64,000 bases of DNA from Shigella phage vB_SboS_Gloob. The position numbers and the translations under genes were made by a program. Within the stretch, counting starts at the first letter, position 1; each line of letters begins with the position of its first letter. The notes beneath the pieces are model-generated. The model ran no database searches and was not told where the DNA came from. It worked only from the letters and a program-made list of their open reading frames with translations. Positions 49,227 through 64,000 of this stretch are shown piece after piece. The stretch lies in the sequence record OL615011. One strand, given 5' to 3'.

Positions 49227-49918
49227 TCTCCAGGATGATGTACACCGTCTTTGTCAACACGGAACCATTCTGGTAGTTCCGTCCACGGCGTTTTCAAATC
49301 ATTAGACATTTCGATAATTATCTCTTTGATCCCGTTAGGATCCCCGCCACCACCATTGTCCACCCAATAGTCGTACCCATAGATGAAGCCGCTCAGCTGG
49401 AACATGAAGGAGCAGTCGACGTGTGGTGAATCAGAAGCATCCCCTTCCCAGTTATCGGACATCTGGTGGTTAATCAGTTGGATCTTGATCTTCTGGTCTT
49501 GCTGTAGTGTATCGTTGTCCTTGATGCCACAGTCTAGAGAGGGGGTGAATACCGAATAAACCTGCTCTAGCACCTGTAACATCTCAACCAATTTCTTGGT
49601 TCGGATATTGTACTCAAAATCGATAATCAGGGGAATTCGCTGCTTCGCCCCGGCTGTTGGCGTCGATTGTCGATTGTGGTACGTCTTCGTCACCTGTTTG
49701 TTGATCTCAAACTGACCAAAAGAGAAGGTCGCAAATGGGAGCATGTTGGATGGCACGTTCCTGTTGAGGTCATTGCGTCTCCCGATGGCCATGTGTAATG
49801 GGACTTCCATAAGGCCACGCTCTGTGTTCACCTTCAGATCAGACATAATGGTGGCAAACAGATTGATGTATTTCATCAATGAATCATGGTAGAAGTAATT
49901 TTCAAATGGTCTGGCCAT
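49223..49918 (-). CDS. 15: tail sheath stabiliser / tail completion protein (T4 gp15-like)
   Basis: N-terminal YFYHDSLMKYINLFATIMSDL resembles T4 gp15; synteny. Confidence 0.75.
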   Translation of the reverse strand: MARPFENYFYHDSLMKYINLFATIMSDLKVNTERGLMEVPLHMAIGRRNDLNRNVPSNMLPFATFSFGQFEINKQVTKTYHNRQSTPTAGAKQRIPLIIDFEYNIRTKKLVEMLQVLEQVYSVFTPSLDCGIKDNDTLQQDQKIKIQLINHQMSDNWEGDASDSPHVDCSFMFQLSGFIYGYDYWVDNGGGGDPNGIKEIIIEMSNDLKTPWTELPEWFRVDKDGVHHPGD

Positions 49919-49920
49919 GA

Positions 49921-50571
49921 TTATTCTCCAAAGTCGATCTTCATCTTGTCTACTGCAAGCCCCTTCTCAAGCACATCCGCCAAAGCATTGTCGGTCTGCA
50001 GAGAAGAATCCTTGTACACGTCCGGTTCGTTCTCTTCGTCCAAGATGGACAGACGTTTGTCGATATCGTCGATCTCCGGAACGCCTGTATCGAAGTTTTC
50101 GTTGCCGTACTGGAACAACGTGCACGGCAGAGAGAACGTATACCATTTGCCAAATTGCATGAAGTCTTCATCGTTGTTTGGGTTGTTGACCTTGAAGATC
50201 TTGTTCGCCAGGGGCAGGTAGATCAGGTCACCTTCCTGAGGTTGTTGTTCAATCCCAACACCGTTGCCTATCACCTCAGCAAAGCGACGGCGCGAGATAG
50301 AGAACGTCACCTCATCCTGTAGATTAATACCCCCGAACTTCTCCCACATCTGGGTGTTGAAGCCCTGGTAATCCTGCATGTAAACTTCGATGTCGAACGC
50401 TTGGTCGAATCGATGGTTTGCATCGTTGGTAACTGGGAATTTTTCAACGATGGAACGTGGTATATACTTGACGTCTATCCCACGCAACTGAATCATTTCT
50501 TGCACCAAATCTTCAATCAGCTTCTGTGTGCCTTGGTGATTGGTGGCGTTGAAATATTTTGAAGTGGCCAT
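49921..50571 (-). CDS. 14: neck protein (T4 gp14-like)
   Basis: EMIQLRGIDVKYIPRS and EGDLIYLPLANKIFKVN match T4 gp14. Confidence 0.85.
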   Translation of the reverse strand: MATSKYFNATNHQGTQKLIEDLVQEMIQLRGIDVKYIPRSIVEKFPVTNDANHRFDQAFDIEVYMQDYQGFNTQMWEKFGGINLQDEVTFSISRRRFAEVIGNGVGIEQQPQEGDLIYLPLANKIFKVNNPNNDEDFMQFGKWYTFSLPCTLFQYGNENFDTGVPEIDDIDKRLSILDEENEPDVYKDSSLQTDNALADVLEKGLAVDKMKIDFGE

Positions 50572-50591
50572 ATCGATACCCTCAATTTTGA

Positions 50592-50603
50592 AGGTATTTA
50601 GTC
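50592..50603 (-). promoter_or_regulatory. late-promoter-like motif GACTAAATACCTT upstream of the gp14-like gene
   Basis: Read on the minus strand about 20 nt upstream of the ATG, followed by GAGGG. Confidence 0.45.
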
Positions 50604-50630
50604 GAAGTTTATTCTTTTGAGGAATAACTC

Positions 50631-50843
50631 ATGCAAGTGGAAGACATCAAAGAAGTTCGCAGCGGTCGTCGCGTCCGAATCATCTGTGTGGACGCCAAGA
50701 TTGGAGGCGGTGATTACGACATCGTCGGTCTGGTGAAGGAAGTGGATGGCACAGACTTCATTGAGTGGTGGAACTCCAACGACAAGACCGAAGACGGCCT
50801 GCTGCGTGGTAGTGGTAACGGAAACCTGGATTTGAAAATCTAA
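50631..50843 (+). CDS. hypothetical small protein (plus-strand)
   Basis: 70-aa ORF preceded by GAGGAA, in the gap between the gp13-like and gp14-like genes. Confidence 0.4.
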   Translation: MQVEDIKEVRSGRRVRIICVDAKIGGGDYDIVGLVKEVDGTDFIEWWNSNDKTEDGLLRGSGNGNLDLKI

Positions 50844-50870
50844 AAGAAGGGCGGGGGAACCCGCCTTTCC

Positions 50871-51623
50871 TTATCCCATAAAGAAGTCAATCGGGTACTG
50901 CTGACCAGTACGCAGTTCTTCCTCTAAACGCTCGATCTCGCTTTCGGCTTCACTGAACATAGTATCGCCATCCAGCTCGATACCACCTGGGAGACGGATG
51001 CCTCTTGCCTTCTTGAGTACTTCAGCCCAGCGGCGCTTGACCAACGCAGTTGCATACGCCTTCAGCCACATGTCATTCCATGCTTCTTCATTACCCTCTA
51101 CCTCTGGGTCGATGTTCTGGAAACATTTGAACGCCAAAGCCTCGTCCTTTGTCAGGGCGAATTGTGGGTAGAGTTTACGCTGGAATTTCTTGTACACGAA
51201 GGTGCGCTTCACGTTCAACACACTGGTGATGTCGGATAAACGCTGTTGCATTGAAACATAGTCGATCAAGCGGATGGAAACGAGGGCGGCCTTTGGCACC
51301 AACATGGCTTGGGCCATCTGCCATTGAGGAGTTGCCCAGTTACCGATCGATTCAATCGGAGGACCGACGATGACTTCAACCACGTCGTCGATGTCTTTGG
51401 GGAATTCGATGTAACCGTTGGCGATAGTTTCTTCAGTCACCTGGTGAACAAAGAATGCGTCCTGACTGCCATCACGATGATACTCCCAAAACTTCTGTAG
51501 AGCGTCATCGACAGCGTCGGATACCTGTGATGGGTCGAGGTTGATCTGAATTACGGGTGCCCCCAATTTCTTGAGGATGTAATTCATAAACCCCTTGCGG
51601 TCTCTGATAGAATTAACGGCCAT
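50871..51623 (-). CDS. 13: neck protein (T4 gp13-like, assigned mainly by synteny)
   Basis: Position upstream of gp14; ORF track 50871..51641, start moved to the ATG preceded by AAGGGGA. Confidence 0.5.
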   Translation of the reverse strand: MAVNSIRDRKGFMNYILKKLGAPVIQINLDPSQVSDAVDDALQKFWEYHRDGSQDAFFVHQVTEETIANGYIEFPKDIDDVVEVIVGPPIESIGNWATPQWQMAQAMLVPKAALVSIRLIDYVSMQQRLSDITSVLNVKRTFVYKKFQRKLYPQFALTKDEALAFKCFQNIDPEVEGNEEAWNDMWLKAYATALVKRRWAEVLKKARGIRLPGGIELDGDTMFSEAESEIERLEEELRTGQQYPIDFFMG

Positions 51624-51951
51624 TGACGTTCCCCTTACCACTCTGGAGGTCAGATACCGTAATCCGCAGAGTTCGCACGTCGTCGGACAGACTGCTGCTA
51701 TTGAGTTTTAATTCAGCAACGTTCTGCTTGACGTAGTTGACGTCTGTGTTTAATACAGCGATCTTCTCACTCATATCGTTGACTTTGACAAGGATCTGGT
51801 CAACCTTGTTGGAATCCCGCTCAACCACATCAAGACGGTTTTCGAACTTACCCATCATCCAAACAACCGAGCCAACAGAGACTATCGCCGCCGTCAGCAC
51901 CCCGGTGAGGATCGCTTTCACATCGATCACAGTGTTAGTTTGAGTTGTCAT
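51613..51951 (-). CDS. membrane-anchored coiled-coil protein
   Basis: N-terminal hydrophobic helix (ILTGVLTAAIVSVGSVVWMMG) then coiled coil; start at the ATG preceded by AGGAGG. Confidence 0.45.
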   Translation of the reverse strand: MTTQTNTVIDVKAILTGVLTAAIVSVGSVVWMMGKFENRLDVVERDSNKVDQILVKVNDMSEKIAVLNTDVNYVKQNVAELKLNSSSLSDDVRTLRITVSDLQSGKGNVNGR

Positions 51952-52183
51952 CTTGGCCTCCTGACGGGAGTTCAATCCCGAGGTGTTCCGCCATGAGTTG
52001 TACCGTCGCTGTCAGTTGATCGATTTGCGCTGCCTGCGCTGCAATAGTTCTGTCCTTTTCTTCCTGATTTCGACGGGCGTTCAGAGCCGCTAAACCAGCA
52101 GCACTGTCTGTGCAGATGATAGCCCCAGGGCAAGAGCTACTTCTCATCATCGATGCATGCCCCTGTACTTTTACACCACGCAT
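51935..52183 (-). CDS. hypothetical small protein
   Basis: 82-aa ORF. Confidence 0.35.
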   Translation of the reverse strand: MRGVKVQGHASMMRSSSCPGAIICTDSAAGLAALNARRNQEEKDRTIAAQAAQIDQLTATVQLMAEHLGIELPSGGQDDNSN

Positions 52184-52234
52184 GATAATATCCTCTGTTG
52201 ATGGGCGGGGTTTCCCCCGCCTTGGTATTACTAC

Positions 52235-55200
52235 TTATGCCAGAGCAATCAAACGGAAATCTTTGAATGATGGCGGCGCTGTACGGTTGCCTCTCACCAG
52301 CAGGCGGATCTTCAGGCCAACAAACGGATTGGTGCTGTCCACAGTCTTGTCATATTCGTATTCAAAGAATGTGGAACCATCGTTGACCAGAGGGGATGTT
52401 GGAGTCACGGTTTCCCATGCCACGTCATCCATCTCCTGACCAGCGCGGAGCAGTTTCACCTGTACAGTCATTGAAGACTGAGAAGGCAGCATCGCACCGA
52501 AGTATTGCTTCAGGGTGGTGCAAGGGTTATCGAAGCCGATATCCTTGGTCACATAACTGAACACGTCTTCAAACGGATCCACCCCGTAGGTGTTGAAGAT
52601 GATAGTGAAATCATCTCCATCGATCATCGGAGCCGTGTACACGTTGCTTTCGTTACGCGTCATTGTCGCCCGCACCTGGAAGTCACCCACTTGACGATAG
52701 ATCCCTTCCGTCGGCAGCGGTACGTCCGTATCGGATTCGAACTCAGCCCAATCAGAGAATGAGTTGGAGGTCGCATCGCGGTAACGGTATTCCAGTTTCA
52801 ACACAGATCCTTCCAGCGCAGAGTTGGTGACACTTGCATAGAACATGTCCACCAAGTAGTTACCCAGGAACGACGCCTCTTCCCCGCCGATCTGGCCGTC
52901 AGAGTCCGCGTTGGAACTCAGCACGACTTTGAAGCTGGTGAATGAAGCATCAGTTACAGTGTGCTGGGTGTTCAGCTGCTCCGGTGTGAATCCACAGCCG
53001 CCAGTCAGACCAGACAGCGTCACACTCTCACCAGCAGTCAGGCCATGGCCTGGTGCGTACACGGTAACAGTGGAAGAACCGCTCACGCAGTTGACCATGT
53101 TCAAGCCCAGCGGACGGATCTTCGGACCGACCTTGGCATCGAAGGTCACGATGTTATCACCAGCACTGAAGTTGCAGCGATATACACGGAACTTCATATC
53201 GGCAGTCTGGTTTGGAGTCCAGGTCGTACCGTTTGAAGATGTGAAGAACACGCCAGTGTACGGCTGTTTGGCAATGAACTCGTTGGTCAGCAGGTTTTTC
53301 TTGCCCATCTCGGCGATGTACGCGTTGTAATCCTGGGTGTTGGCCAGTAGTACAATCGCGAATTCAGTCTGAGCCTGCAGATACACAGGGTAATCGAACT
53401 TGAACATCGTCGGCACAGAAGAGTCCGTGGAGATGGAGACTTCTGATGGGTTCAACGTCTTACGAGTGACCACAGTTGTCGCTGGAAGCCCGTTGCTCAT
53501 TTCACGTATTTCCAGAGTGATCGGGATATCTCGTGACTTGGTGGAGAAGAACACTTCGATCCCTTCGATGTACTCACCACCAATATTGGTAGCAACCATG
53601 AAGGATTGAGCAATCGGGTCTTTCCACTTCGCAACTTCAACCGTCTCCGTCTTGTTCTCTGTGGACTTGGTCGCAGTGTAACCCAGGACGCGAGTGTTGA
53701 CATAGGTCTTTTGAATGCCCTGTTTCTTACCGAAGGATTTGTGAACCGCTTCAGCATTGGTCAGGGTATCATCAGCAGACTTGCTGTCAACAGGGCTGTC
53801 GGTCAGACGGAAGACGTTGTCGCCCGTGTTGAACTTAACAGTCTCGTTCTGAGGAACTGCGAACACGCCTTTGATGTTGCCGTTGGCGTCAGTATTCAAC
53901 GCACCACCCAGGGAGCCGCCGTTGGGTGTACAGTACGCGCTAACATCACGTCCAGAGAAGAACGGATACACGCGAGTAAACGGACGCAGACCTGTGGCTT
54001 CGAAGTTGATGTTCGTTTTGCGCATGTATGGGATTACCTGCGTTTCAACGATCTGCTCGCCAGTCAGGGTAGTGGTCGTCTTGTCGGTGTACGTGTACGT
54101 GGTGACGTCACGGGTAGACACAGTCGTGCGGTAGCGGTAGCCCCACCATACGCCGCCTGCGCCATGCGGTTCCCACACACGCTCAGACACAGACACAGTA
54201 CGCCATGTGCCATACACGGAACCTTCTTTGATCGCGCCGCGTGTGTTGATCGTTTCGTTGATTACACGTGGAGCAACATAGTAGTTCTCGAACCAGTAGT
54301 CGGTGGTTGGGTTCAGTTTCAGGAAACCTTCCCAGTTGAACACCGCATATGGGTTCACGTTGATGGTCGTGGTCGCATAATCCTGGCGCACAGAGATCTC
54401 ACGGGTGTAGTTGCATACAACCATGCCATCCTGAACGTTGTTCCAGCCCACTGGCGTCAGGTCAACCGCATTCTGCTGAACGAACGGGCGTAGGCGACCA
54501 TTGTCAGTGTCGATTGAACCTACCCAGTCAGCGGACAAATCGTCGATCAGACGGAAGTCTTTGAACGGGTCGGCAGCGATACCGTTTTTGAAGCGCGGGT
54601 TGCCAGTGATCGGGTCGAACACCTGCTGAGTCATAGCTGAAGATTCCAGCTGTGACAGTGAGGTGTAGTATTCAACATTGGAGATACGGGTCTCCAGTTT
54701 ACCGATATCACGCATCGTGTAACGACGGTTGTCGATGGTACGAATCTGAATATCGTCGATGTTGGCCGTGTAAGGCGGGATCATCAATTCGTACAGACGC
54801 ATGCCGTTGTCTGGGATCGCAGGCGAAGCCAGGTTGTTGGAACTCACACCACGCGCAACGTTAAACACGCCGTTGTCGGCCAGATACACGGCATCAATAC
54901 GAGGCAGATAGTACTCCGCATCGAGGACGATGGCAGTGTTCGGGCGAACCATGTCCGTGTCGGACGCTCCGCTGGTGATCTTAGGACGGAAGTCCAGGCT
55001 GTCTGCCAGACCATACACAGTACCAGAACTGGATGAAACATAGTTCGGGATGTCTTGGTAGTCGATAGACGAATAGGAGTCCGCCGTAAAGAAGTCACCG
55101 GAGCTGTGGGCGAAATACTGATACACCACCGTGAACACGCCTGAGATGGCTCCAGTAGACGATACGAGGTTAGAACGGTAGTACGCCGCATCGCGCTGGC

Positions 55201-57073
55201 CGCCGTCCAGAGTGAAGTTCGAGGTGACGTCAGCGCCATTTGCGTTCTTCACGCTGACCAGTTTGTAGCCGTCGTGATTGTTCAGCTGTACGCTGGCCGC
55301 CGAAGTGAACGTTGCGGTCTCGGTGACTTCGGTCACAGTCTTTGTCTTGATCGTTGCTGTGGTACGCACCATCAGAGCCAACAGGTTGATGGATTGGTTG
55401 GCATAGCCAGCACCCAAAGAGATCTGGAGAGCAGAACCCACTGGTGTACCTGTCAGAGACAGTCCTGAAGAAATATCGAACTGAGCTGCAGTGCCATCTG
55501 CCTTCGCCGCCGAATACAAAGAGAATTCAGGACTGAAGCTGTAGCCCAGAGGAGCAGAGATAGAGCCTGTGCCTGCCGCACTCAACGTGATCTTGTTTGA
55601 CCGCAGGACGGTGTAGTTGATATCAATGGTTCCAGTAGGAGCCAAGGTCTTCACGCCGAATACAGGCAGAGGGAAGATCAGGTCAATCGCCGAACTCTGG
55701 CTGAACTGATTAGACTCCAGTTCGCAAGAGAACATTGTTGTACCGCTTTCTTCATAAGCGACTTTGGTCACCGTGCCCATGTCCCCAGTCACGACCAGAT
55801 CACGCATGTACAGACGGAATTCAGTACCGGAGCGCTCTGCTGAAATCAGCAGCGCCGTTGCCTGGGTCACGCTCGAAGCGTTCAGGAACTTGTAACGGAT
55901 TGTGCGAGAGACAACCGGAACCCCTTTGGAGTTCTTGGACACCAGATAGTTGCCAGTCGCAACAGCCACAGGGTTGTTGTTCAGGGTATCAGTGTCACGG
56001 GCTTTATCAATGGTGACCAGCTCTTCGCCGAGGTTTTCGATACGACGGCCACGAACGTAGGAGATCCCTGGCTTCATGACCGCCACGAATTTGCTTGCGT
56101 CACCACCTTCAGCCGGAGTGTACACGCCGCCGTTGTTGTTCTCTTTCAGATGTTCACGCAGGTCGATCTGATGCGTAGACACGTTGTAGTCACCATTGGT
56201 CTCATAGGTACGCTGAGCCATGGTGTCTTCGAGGATGTTGTACGTTGACTGGGTGACCATGGACTGAATGCGACCGTCTTTCACCTTCGCCAGTTCAACG
56301 AAGTCGGCCACTTCTTCATCATAACCGTAGCGAGACAACACGAGGTCGACGCGCAGGCGATGCGCGCCAGGCGCTTTAGAGTTCGGAGTACCCTGCGCAT
56401 TGGAATACAGGCTTTCGTCTTCTGCTTCTGTAACAATGGTTTCTGTTACTTTGAATCCAACGCGGTGTGAAGTAGAGTTGGACGCGTTATCTACGATCAG
56501 AGTAGCTGGTTCAACATCTAGGAACATACCACGAACAAAATAAACACCCTTTGTCATGCGAGCAACAATCGAACCGCCAACAGTAGCAGCCACACCATAG
56601 CCGACGCGGATGAAGTTATCGTTCACGTCGTAGGTGTTGAAGTACAGGTTATCCCCAGCTTCGAAACCGTCTGAACTACCACTCTCAGTCATCTCTAAGA
56701 TGGCATACATTGTATCCGGCTCAGCCAGGTAACGTTCCAGAGACAGGACGCGTGCTTTCGCATTGTTGTCCTTGCCCAGAACATAGAGTTCGGAGATACC
56801 TTCCAGATCAGTGAACTCGCTACCACCAGCCAGAGTGAACTTCATGGACACTGCGGTGTTGGTGATTGTCAGACCGCCGGGAATAACCATAGATCCTTCT
56901 TTGAAAAGATGGTTGCCGATCTTTTCAAGCTGGTCTTGGAAGATAGTCTGAAGCTGGTTCAGTTCACGCGTCTGTACTTTGATAGGAGCCGGACGGAACA
57001 GGATGCGTGAAAAACGCTTCTCTGGATTCCAGTCATCCCAGTACGGGCGGCGGTTGAGGTTCATTTCTTGCAT
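52235..57073 (-). CDS. giant virion structural protein (1613 aa), probable tail or baseplate-associated fibre component
   Basis: ORF track 52235..57337 runs upstream into the neighbouring gene; start moved to MQEMNLN preceded by GGAG; Thr/Ser/Gly-rich low-complexity stretches. Confidence 0.6.
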   Translation of the reverse strand: MQEMNLNRRPYWDDWNPEKRFSRILFRPAPIKVQTRELNQLQTIFQDQLEKIGNHLFKEGSMVIPGGLTITNTAVSMKFTLAGGSEFTDLEGISELYVLGKDNNAKARVLSLERYLAEPDTMYAILEMTESGSSDGFEAGDNLYFNTYDVNDNFIRVGYGVAATVGGSIVARMTKGVYFVRGMFLDVEPATLIVDNASNSTSHRVGFKVTETIVTEAEDESLYSNAQGTPNSKAPGAHRLRVDLVLSRYGYDEEVADFVELAKVKDGRIQSMVTQSTYNILEDTMAQRTYETNGDYNVSTHQIDLREHLKENNNGGVYTPAEGGDASKFVAVMKPGISYVRGRRIENLGEELVTIDKARDTDTLNNNPVAVATGNYLVSKNSKGVPVVSRTIRYKFLNASSVTQATALLISAERSGTEFRLYMRDLVVTGDMGTVTKVAYEESGTTMFSCELESNQFSQSSAIDLIFPLPVFGVKTLAPTGTIDINYTVLRSNKITLSAAGTGSISAPLGYSFSPEFSLYSAAKADGTAAQFDISSGLSLTGTPVGSALQISLGAGYANQSINLLALMVRTTATIKTKTVTEVTETATFTSAASVQLNNHDGYKLVSVKNANGADVTSNFTLDGGQRDAAYYRSNLVSSTGAISGVFTVVYQYFAHSSGDFFTADSYSSIDYQDIPNYVSSSSGTVYGLADSLDFRPKITSGASDTDMVRPNTAIVLDAEYYLPRIDAVYLADNGVFNVARGVSSNNLASPAIPDNGMRLYELMIPPYTANIDDIQIRTIDNRRYTMRDIGKLETRISNVEYYTSLSQLESSAMTQQVFDPITGNPRFKNGIAADPFKDFRLIDDLSADWVGSIDTDNGRLRPFVQQNAVDLTPVGWNNVQDGMVVCNYTREISVRQDYATTTINVNPYAVFNWEGFLKLNPTTDYWFENYYVAPRVINETINTRGAIKEGSVYGTWRTVSVSERVWEPHGAGGVWWGYRYRTTVSTRDVTTYTYTDKTTTTLTGEQIVETQVIPYMRKTNINFEATGLRPFTRVYPFFSGRDVSAYCTPNGGSLGGALNTDANGNIKGVFAVPQNETVKFNTGDNVFRLTDSPVDSKSADDTLTNAEAVHKSFGKKQGIQKTYVNTRVLGYTATKSTENKTETVEVAKWKDPIAQSFMVATNIGGEYIEGIEVFFSTKSRDIPITLEIREMSNGLPATTVVTRKTLNPSEVSISTDSSVPTMFKFDYPVYLQAQTEFAIVLLANTQDYNAYIAEMGKKNLLTNEFIAKQPYTGVFFTSSNGTTWTPNQTADMKFRVYRCNFSAGDNIVTFDAKVGPKIRPLGLNMVNCVSGSSTVTVYAPGHGLTAGESVTLSGLTGGCGFTPEQLNTQHTVTDASFTSFKVVLSSNADSDGQIGGEEASFLGNYLVDMFYASVTNSALEGSVLKLEYRYRDATSNSFSDWAEFESDTDVPLPTEGIYRQVGDFQVRATMTRNESNVYTAPMIDGDDFTIIFNTYGVDPFEDVFSYVTKDIGFDNPCTTLKQYFGAMLPSQSSMTVQVKLLRAGQEMDDVAWETVTPTSPLVNDGSTFFEYEYDKTVDSTNPFVGLKIRLLVRGNRTAPPSFKDFRLIALA

Positions 57074-57106
57074 TTTGATGCTCCATCGATAGGTGCCATT
57101 ATAGAC

Positions 57107-57116
57107 ATATTTAGTA
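57107..57116 (-). promoter_or_regulatory. late-promoter-like motif (weaker variant TACTAAATAT) upstream of the giant structural gene
   Basis: Lies between a terminator hairpin and the GGAG-ATG start. Confidence 0.35.
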
Positions 57117-57145
57117 TACAGCCAACCGAGGAATAGAAAGAAATA

Positions 57146-57163
57146 AGCCCTCCGAAGAGGGCT
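57146..57163 (-). terminator. rho-independent terminator downstream of tailspike gene A
   Basis: agccctccgaagagggct stem-loop followed by TATTTCTTTC on the minus strand. Confidence 0.55.
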
Positions 57164-57168
57164 CTGAT

Positions 57169-59631
57169 TTAGTTGACAGAATCCAGCATCGACAAACATT
57201 TCAGCTGAACTTGCACAACACTTTCGTTGGTCACGGCTGGAACAGTCAACCCAGATGCAGATATGCCGAAATTCGCTATGAAGCCTGTGGTCTGACTCCG
57301 CACGACATCTGTACCCGTGCCGCTCCCACCGTTGCAAGCAAACTGGGTCTGTTTCGAACCGAAAGCATCACCATTACCACTTACACATAACTGCCAAACT
57401 CCGCGAGGAAGAGTTCCCGGTATTGTTATGGAAGCCGCCCCCGCAGGCCTGGTGAATTTAATATTTTCAAAGAAAATAGTATCTTCAATTGTAGCCGTGT
57501 TTCGTGTTCCGAAACTCAGTGCCTGGTTTCCAACAAAACTGATGGATGTGCGACTGTCAAGAACAAAGCTAGACAAAAGCCCAGTCTGTGCTGTGACGTT
57601 ACAGTCGACGATGTTGCCGTGTGCAGTGACCGCTTTCGGAATACCCTGAATTTTGTAACCAACAGTCCGGTAATTCAGAGAAAGGTTATTCAATTGTTTA
57701 ACAGTATTCCCGATCATCTTGACTTTCTGGCCGCGATAAACCTGACCAGAAGTTGCCCCCGCATTAACGCAAATCCCCTCCGTTTTGTTATTAGAGGTAT
57801 TGCATTTCATGACCACGGTATTATGGCTGATGTCTATATCGTTGTAAACAAAGTACGAGCTGTCCCCCGCACCAGTTGCTATGGAAACACCGTCGACAGA
57901 ACGGAGTTCGCAATAGTTGTTTAGCACTTTCACGAAAGGTTCAGGATAAGTTGTGCTCGTGGGTTCACCCCCGCCCCCGACGTCGATAGACCTGGTATAC
58001 TTCGCCCCAATCAATGGACCCGTGGTCTCACTGTCTGGAATGTCGCGAGAACGGACGTAGTTGTTTGCAATTATCAGGTTATACGGCTCATAATTTGGAC
58101 TCCAGCCGACGCCACATTTGGCATAAATACCCACAACGCCGTGTTCTAAACATTGGTTTCCCGTGATGATCGCTTGTCCACCACCATGGAAATCAATACA
58201 TTTTCTACGACAATTTTGGATCTGATTGTTGGTGACTGTAACGTTTCTGACTCGGCGGTTTCGGCCGTGTGTAATGCCATACCCAGGGTCATAACTGGCG
58301 TTGACCAAGTCATCACCGGATGGATGCCCGATATCATTAATGACGTTGGCGTCGTAGTTCAGGCGATAACCAGATAGCACATAAATGCCGCCACTGTAGC
58401 ATTTACTGATAGTAGAATTGACCACCAAAATACCGTTCGGTACGTCTGAATCCACGGTGTAGTCGGCTGTCCCATAAGCAACAGCGGCGTTCCTGATACC
58501 GATACCAACCCCAGCAAAGTTGAATCCGGTTATATGACAGTTATTAATCAAAATGCCACGACATGCTCTCTGCACTTTAATCCCACACGCCCAGCTTCCG
58601 ATGTAACCACCAAGGAAAGTGCCCCAAGTGCTCCTCCAACCCGCAATTTGGGTGCCTGCGGAGTCGTAGGAAGGGAACTGCCCAGATACACCAGAATAAG
58701 CACCACTAGTGTAAGCAGAACTGTCAACTGAATTGTTGGGTCCTGTGATTTGAGCTGAATCATACCCAAAGCCAGTTTCACCTTTCTCTGCATACCCGGT
58801 GGTTGGGTCTATCGCTGGGAAAATGCTGGGTCCGGTTATCGTCAGTTGCACAGTAACGTTTTCACAATTAACTAATGATAAAGCGTCAAGTCCGTGTGTA
58901 TTGACTTTAATCGAACCATTGAATACCTTTATCCCTTTCTTGTTCACGAGCGCTAAACAAGGGCTGAAGTTTCTTGTTCCATCAGAAAAGTCAGATTCAC
59001 CGGGATATTTGTTAGCCAACGCAGGATTTTTGGACACGAGGTAATTTCCTCCACCCAAATTCAAATCCCCAGAAACTGATTCAAAGAAAGCTTGGAGGGC
59101 TAACGTGTCGTCCGTGCTACCATCACCGATAGCACCGAAGTCTTTTGGAGTCAAAATTCTTTTGGCTGGGTTAGATTGTAAAACCCAGGTAGAAGAAGAA
59201 ATGCCTCCTGTGTTAGAGACTGTGTCGTTCGCCGATACCGTCTTCGGCAGAGAACCCGCCCAACGATACAATTCCTTCCCGTCACTCACCAATTCGTTCT
59301 TGACGCGGATAGTGAATCCAGACGTAAAGTTTTCGACCAGAGTAACGAACTCCCCACGTATTACAGCCAAAGCACCCAGGTCGACAGTGCCCGTATTGTG
59401 TACAAGAATGCCGTCTGTCAGGCTGGTGATGGTAGCGCCAGCAGGCAGGTTAGAAGGTAGTGCATAGGAGCGCTGAGTGACCTTATCGTAGATTACCTTG
59501 TAACCAGTCAGGGTGGAACCTGGTTTAGCATACAGAACTTCGGACTTCTTGCATCCAAACTTGCGAGCAATGGAGTCCTTGTTTGTCTCTTTGGAGACAG
59601 AGCCTTTCGGCTGTGAAAATTGCGGATTCAT
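57169..59631 (-). CDS. tailspike protein A with pectate-lyase-like right-handed beta-helix
   Basis: DFGAIGDGSTDDTLALQ motif after the shared YRWAGSLPKTV...TGGI...W segment; ORF track 57169..59670, start moved to the ATG preceded by AGGAGA. Confidence 0.7.
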   Translation of the reverse strand: MNPQFSQPKGSVSKETNKDSIARKFGCKKSEVLYAKPGSTLTGYKVIYDKVTQRSYALPSNLPAGATITSLTDGILVHNTGTVDLGALAVIRGEFVTLVENFTSGFTIRVKNELVSDGKELYRWAGSLPKTVSANDTVSNTGGISSSTWVLQSNPAKRILTPKDFGAIGDGSTDDTLALQAFFESVSGDLNLGGGNYLVSKNPALANKYPGESDFSDGTRNFSPCLALVNKKGIKVFNGSIKVNTHGLDALSLVNCENVTVQLTITGPSIFPAIDPTTGYAEKGETGFGYDSAQITGPNNSVDSSAYTSGAYSGVSGQFPSYDSAGTQIAGWRSTWGTFLGGYIGSWACGIKVQRACRGILINNCHITGFNFAGVGIGIRNAAVAYGTADYTVDSDVPNGILVVNSTISKCYSGGIYVLSGYRLNYDANVINDIGHPSGDDLVNASYDPGYGITHGRNRRVRNVTVTNNQIQNCRRKCIDFHGGGQAIITGNQCLEHGVVGIYAKCGVGWSPNYEPYNLIIANNYVRSRDIPDSETTGPLIGAKYTRSIDVGGGGEPTSTTYPEPFVKVLNNYCELRSVDGVSIATGAGDSSYFVYNDIDISHNTVVMKCNTSNNKTEGICVNAGATSGQVYRGQKVKMIGNTVKQLNNLSLNYRTVGYKIQGIPKAVTAHGNIVDCNVTAQTGLLSSFVLDSRTSISFVGNQALSFGTRNTATIEDTIFFENIKFTRPAGAASITIPGTLPRGVWQLCVSGNGDAFGSKQTQFACNGGSGTGTDVVRSQTTGFIANFGISASGLTVPAVTNESVVQVQLKCLSMLDSVN

Positions 59632-59664
59632 AACGAATCTCCTGTTGTTATTCTCAATGGAAAG

Positions 59665-59687
59665 CCCCACTTAGTTAATAAGTGGGG
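59665..59687 (-). terminator. hairpin between tailspike genes B and A
   Basis: ccccacttagttaataagtgggg stem-loop in the intergenic region. Confidence 0.4.
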
Positions 59688-59709
59688 AAAGGAAAGGTGT
59701 AAAATTAAT

Positions 59710-61932
59710 TTAAGAAGATGCAGACCATTGTGGCATGCTGAGTGTCCACTTACCAATTGACGTCCAATAAGTAGCAGTAAATGTAGCAGTCTTAGTTGTG
59801 GCAGTATTCGCACCCGTAACATCAACAGGAACACCTGCAAAACTCAAAGATGCAATGTTACTACCACGAACCAACATATTAATTTTTTGCCCGTTATACG
59901 GTGTTCCAGACACTGTGATATTCAAACCGGAAGTCACATTTAGATAATATAATGCGTATCCCTGTCGGACATCTATAGGAAGTGTTCCAGCTGTATATTG
60001 TGCAAAGGATTGTGTACCACGGTCTACAGCCAAGCCGTCTGTGTTACCTATTGGGATAACGGTTCCGCCAGGGAATGCCCTAGCCCTTGGAATATAGGCG
60101 TAACATTGGCTTGCCCCAGAGAAATCAAACCAACGGGTTCTCAGTCCATTATTAGGAGCATGGATCACAGCCCCAACACAACCACGACCTCGATACATAC
60201 AGTCACCGATGGAATGACTATGATTTATACCGGCACAATAAAAGTCCCGGCTTCCTCCGCTTAGGTTGATATCAGCAATATCATTACGCTCAAAGTACAT
60301 TCCGTAGACGTTTGTTCCGTCTGCGCTGTCGTAAAGTCCAAACTGACTGGTGTTCTGGCTAAATCCACCTGTAATGCACACGGCAGATGTGGAAAAGGTA
60401 TTCACGTAATCGACATCAGTGCTTCCGTCAGTGCTGTTAAAAACTACGATGCCATAATCGCACTTGTTAGCAGGGTCGCCAGAGTATCCTCGATGGTCTT
60501 TAATCGTAATAGCATTCGGGCCATTAAGGACAAACAGACGTTTACCACCTATTCCACCGTTCAAAACCTCAGAGTTAGATATAATAACCCCATAACTCAT
60601 AAACTCGATTCTAATTCCGGTGTTTCCTGTTCCTAGCCCCATATCAATCCAAGGGTCGAAAACACCAGTGTTGTTTCTGGCGCTGTATAAATGCAAGCCG
60701 ATACAGTTGTTAAACCCAGAAAGGTCAATACGTATATCGTGAGTCTTACAGTTTCGAATAAAGGCGCTATTAACGTCTAATGAAGAAGCTCGTGCTACAG
60801 TGACTCCATCCGCCCCAGCTTTAATTTTTGCATTGGGATGGAAAAATACTTGGGTGTTCTGACCGAATTTAATGGTTTCTGCTGCCGTTGATACGGTGTA
60901 GTCTCCTGCATTGAAATAAATCCCACCACCAGCGGCCAAAATTGTGTTGATTTCCGCGTTGGTCATCGTCGGATAGATGTTTTTCAACGGGAAAACGCCG
61001 GTTTTAACGGCATAATCATCGAAAATAGTACCACCATACCCGCTGCCAATTAATTTAGTTCCTATATCAGAAGCCAATTGGTCACGTAAAGAATTTTGGT
61101 CTACTCGTACCCAAGCATCAACATCAATACCACCAGTGGTAACTGGAGTAGATCCGGCTACCACAGTTTTAGGCAGCGTGCCTGCCCAACGATACAATTT
61201 ACCTTCTGCCTTATATCCGACAGACTGAGAAGCCGTAATAACAGTAGCACCAGCTTCAAACGTGCCTACCATAGGCAAACCAGATTCGGCAGCTAATCGA
61301 CTCAGGATAGGATCGAGAGCACCACTGAAATTACCAGAGGCTTGTTTAAGTGTATTAATCTCCTCTTGCACCGTCTGCCCAGAAGACGTACCAATCAGAC
61401 TTGCTCCTCCATCGGAAGAGAGCGCCAGGTAATTTTGTTTGATGGACATCTCGGCCACGACCCAAACCCCAGCCGCTGGTGAACCTGTAAGGAAACTCAC
61501 AACTCCTGTTGTGCTATTGTAGGTGTAGTCAACCCCAGGAACCTGGAACTTACCATCGATATACAGGGTCTGCACACCATATGTGGTGAAGTCGGGTGTG
61601 AACGTTGTTTCGTTGCCAACGGCCTGGAACTTGTAGATTCGGATCCCGTTTTCATAATCTTCTGGGGACAGGATCTTGTCAAACAGACAGTACACAACGT
61701 CTTCTGGTTCAAGAGATCGACCGAGGTTGACAGTGTTACCATCGATTTCATAATTGTCGACAGGAACCTGGACGCCGCCGTTGATGGTGATGAAGCCCGT
61801 AACAGGATAGAACGGGAGGGAGATAAACGTCTCTCCGCCCGTTGCGGTATAAGTGTATGGAATCTGGTGCGGGGCTGTTACAACCGCTCCAAAGATACTC
61901 TCGACGTTTCTGGTCATTTGAAGATACCCCAT
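59710..61932 (-). CDS. tailspike protein B
   Basis: Contains the shared KLYRWAGTLPKTV...TTGGIDVDAW segment; alternative ATG 15 nt downstream. Confidence 0.65.
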   Translation of the reverse strand: MGYLQMTRNVESIFGAVVTAPHQIPYTYTATGGETFISLPFYPVTGFITINGGVQVPVDNYEIDGNTVNLGRSLEPEDVVYCLFDKILSPEDYENGIRIYKFQAVGNETTFTPDFTTYGVQTLYIDGKFQVPGVDYTYNSTTGVVSFLTGSPAAGVWVVAEMSIKQNYLALSSDGGASLIGTSSGQTVQEEINTLKQASGNFSGALDPILSRLAAESGLPMVGTFEAGATVITASQSVGYKAEGKLYRWAGTLPKTVVAGSTPVTTGGIDVDAWVRVDQNSLRDQLASDIGTKLIGSGYGGTIFDDYAVKTGVFPLKNIYPTMTNAEINTILAAGGGIYFNAGDYTVSTAAETIKFGQNTQVFFHPNAKIKAGADGVTVARASSLDVNSAFIRNCKTHDIRIDLSGFNNCIGLHLYSARNNTGVFDPWIDMGLGTGNTGIRIEFMSYGVIISNSEVLNGGIGGKRLFVLNGPNAITIKDHRGYSGDPANKCDYGIVVFNSTDGSTDVDYVNTFSTSAVCITGGFSQNTSQFGLYDSADGTNVYGMYFERNDIADINLSGGSRDFYCAGINHSHSIGDCMYRGRGCVGAVIHAPNNGLRTRWFDFSGASQCYAYIPRARAFPGGTVIPIGNTDGLAVDRGTQSFAQYTAGTLPIDVRQGYALYYLNVTSGLNITVSGTPYNGQKINMLVRGSNIASLSFAGVPVDVTGANTATTKTATFTATYWTSIGKWTLSMPQWSASS

Positions 61933-61949
61933 AGAGGATTTGCCAATAT

Positions 61950-61962
61950 GGGGTATTTAGTG
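61950..61962 (-). promoter_or_regulatory. late-promoter-like motif CACTAAATACCCC upstream of tailspike B
   Basis: Motif forms one arm of an inverted repeat (ATACCCCAT / ATGGGGTAT) that includes the first ATG. Confidence 0.5.
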
Positions 61963-61971
61963 AATGGATAA

Positions 61972-61987
61972 GGAGTCGCAGGACTCC
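61972..61987 (-). terminator. hairpin downstream of tailspike gene C
   Basis: ggagtcgcaggactcc stem-loop just upstream of the late-promoter motif. Confidence 0.4.
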
Positions 61988-62116
61988 CACTTGTTTTATA
62001 TGATTACGAATTTACCCAGGCTGATATCGTTAATCAGCGTAGCCACTATGTTTGCCAGTTGGGTGGTTGTTAACGTGTTCACATGACCACGCAATTGCTG
62101 GCTACAACAATGATTG

Positions 62117-64000
62117 TTAGCTTAGATTTAGACTAAACCCACCATTTGACTTGCTTATCATACCACGAACAGTTTTGTTGCCTCCACCGCTGTATTCGTC
62201 ATATTGCATTTTGACATTTACAGCGATGTTGGCGTCAATTGAATCCCATCCAGCAAAGTTCAGGAACACATTTCCGCTAGTGTCTACTGATATTGTTGGC
62301 GTGGCGGCTGTTCCTTTTGTGAACGTACTTTGCACTGAACCTTCCATTGTGCTTGCTGCTGGAGTTGTGCCCATCACCAATGTTCCCTGCAATCGCCCAT
62401 GCCATGCGCTAGAAACACCTGAAACCGGGGAGTTGGCTACAACATCAACCGTCCACAAACTTACGTTTCGGTACGTACTCACAGTGCCAATTTTAAAATT
62501 CCTGGAATCTCCAGCGGCTTTAATGAACAGCATTGAACCCGTAGCGCATTTACTTGAATCAGGCGCTGCACCTACAGATGCAAAATCAGAGAATGTGCAA
62601 TTATCAAATTTTACTTTGCTATAATCGGTAGCTGTTAACTTAGCTTCTGGCGCATTAACATTTTCGAATTTAACTCCGCCATAGTTCGCCACTGCGCCTG
62701 TAAGCTGATTGGTATTGACATATACATCACCACCATTCAGCTTTCGGACCACCAGGTCACGACAGATAAATCCGTTAATAGAATCTCCCGACGTCCAGTT
62801 GTCGTTGGTGTTGAAGTTAAAGAACCATGCATGGTTACCAGAGTCTCCGCCGCCAAGTTCTATGCGTCCGGTGATCACAATATTTGAATAACCATATCCA
62901 CGCGGGTTATTATCTGCTACAGACTCGTCAATCAGCTTTGTTGCGCCAATAACACTTCCCCAATTCCCCCCGACGACATCATAATTGATGGTTATGTTAC
63001 GCATCAGTCCGGCAATCATCGTCTCTGTTATGGTGCTGTCCCAACCCCAATCCAGCCATATTGGTGCTACGCGGTACGGAAGCGTGTAACGCCCTGTGCT
63101 ACGATATTTGTAATTGACTGTAAGATTAGATATTTGATTATCCATGTTACCGTTATAGAAATACATTTTGATTGGCGTACCCTGTTGAGTATCAATGGCA
63201 TCAACAGTTATCTGGCCACCACCACAATTGTTCGTCAGAAAGAAATCACGACGGCAACCATTATTAACTGTATGGATGTCAACTACACCAACATTACCAA
63301 GGAGATGTGGATAGCGAGTGTCATTGTTCACACTGCGAGCAAAAAGATTTTTTACATTAGTACATTCGTAGCCCTGATAGCACTTGTTAGTCTTGCCAAT
63401 AAATGTGAAATTATTGCATCCATTCAGGCGCAGCGGGGTTAGTCCGCGTTTGTCATCACCGACATACTCAAGGGTGGAAGAAGCATCCACTTCAAACACC
63501 AGATTGGTGATATTCGTCAGGTCGAACACGCGCGTCAGGTCAAATGCACCGGAGTAAAGCAGGGTGTCCCTGATAACCAGTCCGCGAATTTCAAGGCAGT
63601 CCATATTACTTAAAGTAAAGATGGTACTAAGACCGCCACTACCAGGACCAAAGTTCACAACCTGGTCAAAAATAATTTCAACACTTTTTAGGTTGTTAGA
63701 CGTGATGTAAGACTGTAAAGATTGCAGTGTACCGAATCGGGAGAAGTAAAGGACACGTTTGTTTACAACCGAATCAAGAGCATCTTTTACTGTAGATGAT
63801 TCGTATCCGACAAGACTTGCCTTTTCACCCGTCAGCAGTTCAGAACCCAGCGTTTTGCTTTCAACGCTAACCCATGCTGAAGATGATACACCACCAGTTG
63901 ATTGTGGTGTTGAGTTTTTGTCTACAGTCTTGGGCAAAGACCCACCCCAGGTATAACACTGGGCACCATTGATGTGCCACACGGCGTCGGTTGCGGTCGT
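62117..64000 (-). CDS. tailspike protein C, 5' end beyond the right window edge
   Basis: ORF track 62117..63982 begins at a GTG inside the shared motif (VWHINGAQCYTWGGSLPKTV); the frame stays open to position 64000. Confidence 0.6.
   Translation of the reverse strand, partial: TTATDAVWHINGAQCYTWGGSLPKTVDKNSTPQSTGGVSSSAWVSVESKTLGSELLTGEKASLVGYESSTVKDALDSVVNKRVLYFSRFGTLQSLQSYITSNNLKSVEIIFDQVVNFGPGSGGLSTIFTLSNMDCLEIRGLVIRDTLLYSGAFDLTRVFDLTNITNLVFEVDASSTLEYVGDDKRGLTPLRLNGCNNFTFIGKTNKCYQGYECTNVKNLFARSVNNDTRYPHLLGNVGVVDIHTVNNGCRRDFFLTNNCGGGQITVDAIDTQQGTPIKMYFYNGNMDNQISNLTVNYKYRSTGRYTLPYRVAPIWLDWGWDSTITETMIAGLMRNITINYDVVGGNWGSVIGATKLIDESVADNNPRGYGYSNIVITGRIELGGGDSGNHAWFFNFNTNDNWTSGDSINGFICRDLVVRKLNGGDVYVNTNQLTGAVANYGGVKFENVNAPEAKLTATDYSKVKFDNCTFSDFASVGAAPDSSKCATGSMLFIKAAGDSRNFKIGTVSTYRNVSLWTVDVVANSPVSGVSSAWHGRLQGTLVMGTTPAASTMEGSVQSTFTKGTAATPTISVDTSGNVFLNFAGWDSIDANIAVNVKMQYDEYSGGGNKTVRGMISKSNGGFSLNLS

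What the first reader, a model, noticed from the sequence alone, without database searches (positions are those of the whole stretch)
57169..64000. Three tandem paralogous tailspike genes sharing a conserved roughly 35-aa junction motif but divergent beta-helix bodies
The three consecutive genes (820, 740 and more than 620 aa) each carry a near-identical segment (YRWAGSLPKTV...TGGI...AW, at about 59179-59274, 61105-61200 and 63863-63982) followed by unrelated right-handed beta-helix-like sequence; tailspike A has a pectate-lyase-type DFGAIGDGSTDD motif. This is the architecture expected for a branched multi-tailspike receptor-binding complex with several polysaccharide-degrading specificities, as in Ackermannviridae. 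A fourth copy or the anchoring N-terminus of spike C probably lies just beyond the window edge.
Basis: partly seen in the sequence, partly recalled or inferred. Interest (0 to 1): 0.55.

Follow-up and report, generated by a model that had tools for sequence, protein, structure and literature searches.

The report
Known Agtrevirus phage tailspike gene cluster
These are tailspike genes 1, 2 and 3 of a four-spike host-recognition complex in an already deposited Shigella phage (vB_SboS_Gloob, family Ackermannviridae), and the shared motif is a known, catalogued tailspike head domain, so the finding is correct but ordinary.

Summary
Three consecutive minus-strand genes (820 aa, 740 aa, and at least 627 aa cut by the window edge) each carry Y-x-W-x-G-x-LPKTV…TGG…W at the stated coordinates, and nowhere else in the window. 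The copies are 53-59% identical in protein and 53-58% in DNA. So they are conserved but not "near-identical", and they are not a collapsed repeat.

The motif is the C-terminal half of Pfam PF18668 (Tail_spike_N). This corresponds to the D2/TD head subdomain of phage CBA120 tailspikes and ends just before the neck helix.

All three bodies are right-handed parallel beta-helices with no detectable sequence similarity to each other:
- Spike A: Pfam Beta_helix match.
- Spike B: structure model, pLDDT 89.

Exact-sequence look-up identifies spikes A and B as UHS65012.1 and UHS65013.1 of Shigella phage vB_SboS_Gloob. The body of spike C is 100% identical to the Gloob spike and 99.5% identical to the Ag3 spike. 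By synteny with Ag3, A, B and C are TSP1, TSP2 and TSP3, lying next to VriC. TSP4 and about 46 codons of TSP3 lie past the window edge.

The bodies are mobile modules also found on T7-like, P22-like and prophage spikes. This cluster was already compared by Sørensen et al. 2023. Verdict: interpretation supported, already known, low interest.

The parts
52235..57073 (-). VriC/VrlC-like large virion protein (1612 aa) that flanks the tailspike cluster downstream
   Evidence: Pfam DUF4815, 203 bits. 93% DNA identity to Ag3 orf00206. A 1612-aa gene was called in L002. ATG at 57073 with GGAG upstream.
57145..57164 (-). Terminator-like hairpin directly after the spike A stop codon
   Evidence: GAGCCCTCTTCGGAGGGCTT followed by a T-rich tail. 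Consensus match only.
57169..59631 (-). Tailspike A = TSP1 (820 aa; GenBank UHS65012.1 is annotated from GTG 59670 as 833 aa)
   Evidence: Exact-sequence look-up. N-terminal residues 1-158 are 82% identical to Ag3 TSP1. PDB hits 4QNL, 9D84, 6NW9 and 4OJ5 over aa 1-159. AGGAG lies 7 nt upstream of ATG 59631.
59179..59346 (-). PF18668 (D2-type head subdomain) of TSP1, aa 96-151.
   Evidence: Pfam 54.1 bits. Motif position.
59107..59142 (-). DFGAIGDGSTDD, the N-terminal cap motif of the TSP1 beta-helix (aa 164-175)
   Evidence: Position. Matches only the cap of GH55, AlgE and endosialidase N-termini.
57172..59157 (-). TSP1 receptor-binding body (aa 159-820), a right-handed beta-helix module
   Evidence: Pfam PF13229 at aa 401-527, 39.6 bits against a cut-off of 25.9. 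74% identical to a P46FS4 spike, about 70% to spikes of T7-like Enterobacter and E. coli podophages, and 69% to ChubbyThor TSP2. GC 47.3%.
59665..59687 (-). Terminator-like hairpin between TSP2 and TSP1. It overlaps the annotated GTG start of TSP1.
   Evidence: CCCCACTTATTAACTAAGTGGGG.
59710..61932 (-). Tailspike B = TSP2 (740 aa as in UHS65013.1; probably 735 aa starting at ATG 61917)
   Evidence: Exact-sequence look-up. The first 570 nt are 96% identical to Ag3 orf00210. CBA120 TSP2 residue 1 aligns to residue 6.
61381..61917 (-). XD2-XD3 gp10-like branching domains of TSP2 (aa 6-184)
   Evidence: phmmer against PDB 6W4Q, full-length CBA120 TSP2: E 4.6e-74, aa 6-184 aligned to 1-179.
61099..61263 (-). 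PF18668 head subdomain of TSP2 (aa 224-278).
   Evidence: Pfam 47.4 bits. In the structure model the motif forms strands 46-50, 56-58 and 75-77, followed by neck helix 80-88, with pLDDT 88-93.
59713..61032 (-). TSP2 receptor-binding body (aa 301-740), a beta-helix module
   Evidence: AlphaFold2 model, mean pLDDT 89. Foldseek probability 1.00 to CBA120 TSP1-4, AlgE4, and the HK620 and Sf6 tailspikes. 45% identical to the lateral tail fibre of phage ETEP102 and 40% to Ag3 TSP1. 73-95% identical modules occur on T7-like, P22-like and Enterobacter prophage spikes. GC 44.3%.
61972..61987 (.). Palindromic hairpin in the 184-nt spacer between TSP3 and TSP2
   Evidence: GGAGTCGCAGGACTCC. Consensus match only.
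62117..64000 (-). Tailspike C = TSP3, cut by the window edge (627 of 673 codons; annotated as 682 in Gloob)
   Evidence: The frame is open to the edge. 99.5% aa identity to Ag3 orf00212. 100% over the body to the Gloob protein P0001.
63863..63991 (-). PF18668 head subdomain of TSP3 (aa 4-46 of the partial protein).
   Evidence: Pfam 47.3 bits.
62120..63820 (-). TSP3 receptor-binding body, a beta-helix module

Best explanation
The region holds tailspike genes tsp3 (5' end cut off), tsp2 and tsp1 of the four-gene tailspike cluster of an Agtrevirus phage. It is identical to the deposited Shigella phage vB_SboS_Gloob.

Each protein is a mosaic. Its N-terminal assembly module is conserved within Ackermannviridae:
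- TSP1: 19-aa peptide + D1 + D2.
- TSP2: gp10-like XD2 + XD3 + one D-type domain.
- TSP3: 19-aa peptide + helix + one D-type domain.

A short alpha-helical neck joins this module to an unrelated right-handed parallel beta-helix body.

The shared motif (YxWxGxLPKTV…TGG…W) forms the last beta-strands of the D2-type head subdomain (Pfam PF18668), which in CBA120 TSP1 has a chitin-binding-domain-like sandwich fold. It is conserved because it is a structural part of the trimeric head, sitting just before the neck.

Inferred from the CBA120 model: TSP4, outside the window, anchors to the baseplate and binds TSP2 through XD2 and TSP1 through XD3. TSP3 docks on TSP2 XD3. This gives a branched complex in which each beta-helix trimer binds, and most likely cleaves, a different O-antigen or capsule.

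The bodies are horizontally exchanged cassettes. The join lies in or just after the neck, about 45-55 residues downstream of the motif Tyr, not in the motif itself.
For: Identity:
- Exact sequence matches to Gloob proteins UHS65012.1 and UHS65013.1.
- TSP3 body 100% identical to Gloob and 99.5% to Ag3.
- Core genome 96-98% DNA identity to Agtrevirus phages.
- Synteny with Ag3: VriC-tsp1-tsp2-tsp3-tsp4-baseplate and with L003.

Assembly modules:
- PF18668 in all three spikes.
- PDB matches to CBA120 TSP1, TSP3 and TSP4 heads and to G7C gp63.1.
- TSP2 XD2-XD3 matches 6W4Q, E 4.6e-74.

Bodies:
- PF13229 in A.
- B model, pLDDT 89, matches beta-helix tailspikes and epimerases.
- No sequence similarity between the bodies.

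Mosaicism:
- The same bodies, at 64-95% identity, are fused to T7-type (PF03906), P22-type (PF09008) or prophage N-termini.
- Sliding-window identity rises to 85% or more only from about residue 115-120 of TSP3 (motif Tyr at 71) and about 300-305 of TSP2 (Tyr at 247).
- Body GC is 44-47% against 50-51% for the genome.

Literature:
- D1/D2/neck architecture and the chitin-binding-like D2 fold (PMC3966878).
- Assembly of the branched complex (PMC8825819, PMC8432352).
- Agtrevirus tsp cluster comparison that includes Gloob (PMC10791037).
Against: - Nothing here shows that the complex assembles or that any spike has enzymatic activity. Both are inferred from CBA120 and AV101.
- TSP4 and the 5' end of tsp3 of this exact phage were not seen. 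Only relatives were available, plus the deposited Gloob TSP3 protein.
- TSP3 lacks the D1 subdomain, which the CBA120 model treats as the XD3-docking element. Its attachment mode may therefore differ.
- The TSP3 model has only moderate confidence (pLDDT 74), and both models are monomers.
- No catalytic residues or substrates were identified for any spike.
Confidence: 0.93

Rival explanations
1. The shared motif is an assembly artefact: collapsed or mis-joined repeats create apparent copies.
For: A three-copy 37-nt DNA family exists at the motif core. Public metagenomic or run-level contigs carrying tsp1 break inside or next to tsp2.
Against: The copies are only 53-58% identical in DNA and the longest exact run is 16 nt. 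Each copy is in frame within a significant Pfam domain. An independent assembly is 100% identical over 14.8 kb, including two of the copies. The same arrangement is present in Ag3.
Confidence: 0.01
2. The motif is kept mainly as a DNA-level recombination site (a 'junction') that lets beta-helix cassettes be swapped between spikes and between phages. On this view it is not conserved for a structural role.
For: The motif core is the only nucleotide island shared by the three genes. Sørensen et al. note a short region of nucleotide identity just upstream of the beta-helix in Agtrevirus tsp genes and suggest it is a recombination site (PMC10791037). PF18668 accompanies these bodies on T7-like and prophage spikes.
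Against: In the mosaics examined, high identity begins 45-55 residues after the motif Tyr, beyond the neck. The motif domain itself is only 45-55% identical to the window's copy. P22-type fusions carry the same bodies without PF18668 at all. The within-genome DNA identity of 53-58% is poor substrate for homologous recombination. Amino-acid conservation exceeds DNA conservation at the invariant positions, as expected for selection on the protein.
Confidence: 0.12
3. One or more of the three proteins is a binding-only fibre or adhesin, or modifies rather than depolymerises its receptor (for example by deacetylation). In that case 'several polysaccharide-degrading specificities' would be wrong for that spike.
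For: No catalytic family was assigned. Bodies B and C have no Pfam match, and A matches only the generic Beta_helix family and the cap motif. Beta-helix folds also occur in adhesins such as PfbA and in epimerases such as AlgE4, both among the fold hits. G7C gp63.1, which shares the N-terminal head, is an esterase according to the literature cited in PMC8825819.
Confidence: 0.1

Closest known systems
Shigella phage vB_SboS_Gloob tailspike cluster (GenBank proteins UHS65012.1 and UHS65013.1)
   Same: TSP1 (833-aa form) and TSP2 (740 aa) are exact sequence matches. The TSP3 body is 100% identical. This is the same phage or an identical isolate.
   Different: Nothing of substance. The deposited start codons of TSP1 (GTG, +13 aa), TSP2 (+5 aa) and TSP3 (+9 aa) look over-extended compared with homologues and ribosome-binding sites.
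Shigella phage Ag3 (Agtrevirus AG3) tsp1-tsp4, orf00207-orf00213
   Same: Same gene order next to VriC. TSP3 is 99.5% identical. The TSP2 N-terminal 190 aa are 96% identical in DNA. The TSP1 head is 82% identical.
   Different: The TSP1 body is unrelated. The TSP2 body here is a 38-40% relative of the Ag3 TSP1 body, so the module sits at a different position in the complex.
Kuttervirus CBA120 TSP1-TSP4 branched complex (PDB 4OJ5, 6W4Q/5W6P, 6NW9/5W6F, 5W6H, 7REJ)
   Same: Same modular plan: D1-D2 head, neck and beta-helix in TSP1; XD2-XD3 in TSP2; PF18668 domain before the neck. The fold matches of the bodies include all four CBA120 spikes.
   Different: Different genus. The bodies have no sequence similarity to CBA120 bodies. 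TSP3 here has no D1 subdomain, whereas CBA120 TSP3 has D1+D2. The receptors are unknown.
Agtrevirus AV101 TSP1-4 (receptors E. coli O8, O82, O153, O159; PMC10791037)
   Same: Same genus and cluster architecture. Receptor-binding domains are shared with prophages and unrelated virulent phages, as found here.
   Different: The paper reports the AV101 receptor-binding domains as unique within the genus. No sequence comparison with AV101 was made here.
Podophage G7C gp63.1/gp66 two-spike complex (PDB 4QNL)
   Same: The head of gp63.1 (aa 1-157) is the best PDB match to the TSP1 head (E 4.9e-45), including the N-terminal peptide and the motif. Pfam PF18668 is named after TSP1 and Gp66.
   Different: G7C is a podovirus with two spikes. 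According to the literature, the gp63.1 body is an esterase and not a beta-helix depolymerase.

Membership tests
Ackermannviridae branched tailspike (TSP1-4) cluster | Consecutive tsp genes located between VriC and the baseplate-wedge genes of an Ackermannviridae genome | tested here: met
   VriC (DUF4815; 93% DNA identity to Ag3 orf00206) lies directly downstream of spike A. The core genome is 96-98% identical to Agtrevirus phages. The baseplate side is outside the window but is present in Ag3 and L003.
Ackermannviridae branched tailspike (TSP1-4) cluster | TSP2 with N-terminal gp10-like XD2 and XD3 branching domains | tested here: met
   Spike B aa 6-184 against CBA120 TSP2 (6W4Q) aa 1-179, E 4.6e-74.
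Ackermannviridae branched tailspike (TSP1-4) cluster | TSP1 and TSP3 with a D1-D2 (TD1-TD2) head that docks on XD3 | tested here: inconclusive
   TSP1 meets it: aa 1-159 match 4OJ5, 6NW9 and 4QNL. TSP3 has only the 19-aa N-terminal peptide, one helix and one PF18668 domain. There is a 60-residue gap where D1 would be. Docking itself was not testable.
Ackermannviridae branched tailspike (TSP1-4) cluster | TSP4 with a baseplate anchor plus XD1-XD3 | not testable with these tools
   It lies beyond position 64000. Relatives carry a 954-1019 aa gene there, but the contig of this exact phage could not be fetched.
Ackermannviridae branched tailspike (TSP1-4) cluster | C-terminal right-handed parallel beta-helix receptor-binding domain in each spike | tested here: met
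Ackermannviridae branched tailspike (TSP1-4) cluster | Physical assembly into a star-like complex, and polysaccharide depolymerase activity | not testable with these tools
   This needs microscopy, ultracentrifugation and spot assays.
Pfam PF18668 Tail_spike_N (TSP1/Gp66 N-terminal domain) | Score above the curated gathering threshold (25 bits) | tested here: met
   54.1, 47.4 and 47.3 bits for A, B and C.
Pectate-lyase-like enzymes (Pfam PF12708 Pect-lyase_RHGA_epim) | Whole-domain match above the gathering threshold (27 bits), beyond the DFGAxGDGxTDD cap | tested here: not met
   15 bits, E 0.023, covering only profile positions 5-25. Profile-against-PDB hits to GH55, AlgE and endosialidase cover only the cap. 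The enzyme class of spike A stays open.

The most novel reading that the evidence does not exclude
In Ag3/Gloob-type Agtrevirus phages, TSP3 has lost the D1 head subdomain. In the CBA120 model, D1 is the element that docks on XD3. TSP3 nevertheless keeps the first 19 residues, which are 14/19 identical to TSP1. The real docking determinant for XD3 may therefore be this short N-terminal peptide, perhaps together with the PF18668 domain, and not D1. If so, spikes could be attached to the branched complex with a minimal peptide tag.
Probability: 0.25. Interest if true: 0.35.

Novelty: already known. Interest (0 to 1): 0.12.

Why it matters
As a discovery it matters little. The genome is deposited, the domain is in Pfam, the architecture has been solved for CBA120, and this very cluster was compared in a 2023 paper.

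Its practical value is as annotation:
- It assigns TSP1, TSP2 and TSP3 identities to the three genes.
- It shows which modules are Agtrevirus assembly domains and which are exchangeable receptor-binding cassettes shared with T7-like, P22-like and Enterobacter or E. coli prophage spikes.
- It places the cassette join after the neck helix, which is useful when designing chimeric spikes.

Tried and rejected
1. Collapsed-repeat artefact. Rejected on 53-58% DNA identity and a 100% identical independent assembly.

2. Fetching the contig of this exact phage past position 64000. None of these attempts reached tsp4:
- Exact look-ups of Gloob TSP3, of TSP2 and of the 833-aa TSP1 found nothing.
- The 820-aa TSP1 and its 99% relative gave contigs that start inside or next to tsp2.
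- A 60-nt exact scan of IMG/VR found nothing.
The only evidence for what lies beyond the edge is synteny in Ag3 and L003, plus the deposited Gloob TSP3 protein.

3. Assigning spike A to pectate lyases. The PF12708 match is sub-threshold and covers only the cap.

4. Sequence matches of bodies B and C to Pfam or PDB. There were none, so fold prediction was needed.

5. The motif as the exact recombination breakpoint. This is not supported by identity profiles against three mosaic relatives of each of TSP2 and TSP3.

6. A fourth copy of the motif in TSP4. Neither the strict regex nor Pfam finds PF18668 in TSP4 of Ag3 or L003.

Full report
**What is in the sequence**

On the minus strand, the region 57169-64000 holds three consecutive long genes:
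- Spike A, 57169-59631: 820 aa from the ATG, or 833 aa from an upstream GTG.
- Spike B, 59710-61932: 740 aa.
- Spike C, 62117 to beyond 64000: 627 codons, with the frame open to the window edge.

A six-frame scan for [YFW]xWxGx[LFIVM]PKxV finds exactly three matches in the whole 64-kb window. Each match lies inside a Pfam PF18668 (Tail_spike_N) hit of 47-54 bits, against a gathering score of 25. The motif is therefore real and far beyond chance.

It is not "near-identical". Over 32 aligned residues the copies share 17-19 identities, and over 96 nt they share 51-56, with a longest exact in-register run of 16 nt. The only three-copy DNA family in the region is a 37-nt island at the motif core, 68-81% identical.

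An independent public assembly is 100% identical to window 47169-61953. The repeat is thus a diverged protein domain and not an assembly artefact.

**How far the similarity extends**

Pairwise BLASTP shows that the three proteins resemble each other only around this domain:
- A 98-171 against B 221-298: 41% identity.
- B 209-296 against C: 43% identity.
- A and C also share the first 19 residues.

Everything downstream is unrelated in sequence (E > 0.1).

**Identity of the locus**

- Conserved parts of the window are 96-98% identical in DNA to the Agtrevirus phages P46FS4, MK-13, SKML-39 and Ag3.
- An exact-sequence look-up finds spike A (833-aa form) as UHS65012.1 and spike B as UHS65013.1, both from Shigella phage vB_SboS_Gloob.
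- The spike C body is 100% identical to the Gloob spike P0001, and the 627-aa partial spike C is 99.5% identical to Ag3 orf00212.
- In Ag3 the order on the same strand is tsp4 (1019 aa), tsp3 (673 aa), tsp2 (753 aa), tsp1 (594 aa), VriC (1612 aa), with baseplate genes upstream of tsp4. A related contig, L003, shows the same order.

Spikes A, B and C are therefore TSP1, TSP2 and TSP3. The window edge removes 46 codons of tsp3, and tsp4 lies beyond it.

**Anatomy of the N-terminal modules**

- TSP1 aa 1-159 match the heads of G7C gp63.1 (4QNL), CBA120 TSP3 (6NW9), TSP1 (4OJ5) and TSP4 (5W6H), with E 1e-35 to 5e-45.
- TSP2 aa 6-184 match the XD2-XD3 region of full-length CBA120 TSP2 (6W4Q), E 4.6e-74.
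- In CBA120 TSP1 the head consists of D1 (12-96) and D2 (97-about 155). Each is a helix followed by a beta-sandwich. D2 resembles a chitin-binding domain, and a short helix (155-165) forms the neck (PMC3966878).
- The PF18668 hit in TSP1 (aa 96-151) is D2.
- In the models of TSP2 and TSP3, the motif forms the last three strands of this sandwich and ends directly before the neck helix.

**The bodies are beta-helices**

- TSP1 has a Pfam Beta_helix match (39.6 bits) and the cap motif DFGAIGDGSTDD at aa 164-175.
- The TSP2 model (aa 200-740, pLDDT 89) matches CBA120 TSP1-4, AlgE4, fucoidan lyase, and the HK620 and Sf6 tailspikes, with Foldseek probability 1.00.

The "pectate-lyase-type" motif is only the generic N-terminal cap. 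PF12708 scores 15 bits against a cut-off of 27. A profile of TSP1-body homologues hits GH55, AlgE epimerases and endosialidase only over that cap. No enzyme class can be assigned.

**Mosaic origin of the bodies**

- TSP1 body: 74% identical to a P46FS4 spike, about 70% to spikes of T7-like Enterobacter and E. coli podophages, and 69% to ChubbyThor TSP2. The last point is the similarity already noted by Sørensen et al. (PMC10791037).
- TSP2 body: 40% identical to the TSP1 body of Ag3, MK-13 and ChubbyThor, and 45% to a siphophage lateral tail fibre.
- All three bodies occur at 64-95% identity fused to T7-type (PF03906), P22-type (PF09008) or Enterobacter hormaechei prophage N-termini.
- Identity profiles show that the high-identity cassette starts 45-55 residues after the motif Tyr, at or after the neck. 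P22-type fusions lack PF18668 altogether.
- Body GC is 44-47%, against 50-51% for the genome.

The motif therefore borders the join but is not the join.

**Mechanism**

The following steps are inferred from CBA120 work (PMC8825819, PMC8432352, PMC11414711):
- TSP4 anchors to the baseplate.
- TSP2 binds TSP4 through the XD2 domains.
- TSP1 docks on TSP4 XD3, and TSP3 docks on TSP2 XD3.
- Each beta-helix trimer recognises, and probably cleaves, one O-antigen or capsule type.

What is shown here is the presence of the corresponding domains and folds. Assembly, activity and receptors were not shown.

**Novelty**

The phage genome, the Pfam domain, the architecture and the comparison of this very cluster are all published. 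The finding is correct and already known.

**A small open point**

TSP3 of the Ag3/Gloob type lacks D1 but keeps the 19-residue N-terminal peptide that it shares with TSP1. Chao et al. could not resolve the role of the first 13 residues of TSP1 (PMC8825819).

**Seen in passing**

The terminase large subunit carries an intein-like insert in its Walker A loop. The region is contiguous in 277 Ackermannviridae records.

Noticed in passing
window 47735-48211 (- strand), inside the terminase large-subunit gene 46328-48538: A 159-aa intein-like insert splits the Walker A loop: …ARQSGK | CVKGDSIV … GFLSHN | TTVVAAF… It has a Cys at position 1, a terminal His-Asn and a +1 Thr. Pfam Intein_splicing scores 28.1 bits (below the 35.8 cut-off) and PT-HINT 18.2 bits. 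The region is contiguous in 277 Ackermannviridae records, all of which annotate it simply as terminase. No paper on it was found in the library.
   Followed up: partly
window 63863-64000 plus protein P0001 (Gloob TSP3) and L001 12621-14642 (Ag3 TSP3): TSP3 lacks the D1 head subdomain found in TSP1 and in CBA120 TSP3. It consists of a 19-aa N-terminal peptide (MNPQFNQPKGSTAKEINKN, 14/19 identical to TSP1), one helix and one PF18668 domain. This raises the question of what docks on TSP2 XD3.
   Followed up: partly
window 59631-59687, 61917-61932; P0001 residues 1-9: The deposited start codons look over-extended. The TSP1 GTG at 59670 lies inside a hairpin stem, whereas ATG 59631 has AGGAG 7 nt upstream and matches the N-termini of homologues. 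TSP2 probably starts at ATG 61917 (MTRNVE…, which is residue 1 of 6W4Q). Gloob TSP3 is annotated 9 aa longer than Ag3 TSP3.
   Followed up: partly
window 57145-57164, 59665-59687, 61972-61987: A GC-rich hairpin follows each tailspike gene and looks like a terminator on a consensus scan. The scan found 11 terminator-like sites in the region, against 6.8 ± 2.5 in shuffled sequence.
   Followed up: no
window 57172-59157, 59713-61032, 62120-63820: The three beta-helix bodies have 44-47% GC, against 50-51% for the rest of the window and 48-51% for their own N-terminal modules. This is consistent with recent foreign origin of the cassettes.
   Followed up: partly
window 59713-61032 vs L001 8173-9699 (Ag3 TSP1): The body of TSP2 here is a 38-40% relative of the TSP1 body of Ag3, MK-13 and ChubbyThor. 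The body of TSP1 here resembles ChubbyThor TSP2. Related cassettes thus occupy different positions in the complex in sister phages.
   Followed up: partly
L002 (Logan SRR17231375 contig, starts at window 61953) and L004 (Logan ERR11042402 contig): Public run-level assemblies that carry this tsp1 end inside or next to tsp2. The tailspike cluster appears to be a recurrent contig break point.
   Followed up: no
L001 14689-17748 (Ag3 TSP4) and L003 5087-7951: TSP4 of the closest relatives gives no PF18668 match at E<=0.01 and lacks the YxWxGxxPKxV motif, unlike CBA120 TSP4, whose head aligns with TSP1.
   Followed up: partly
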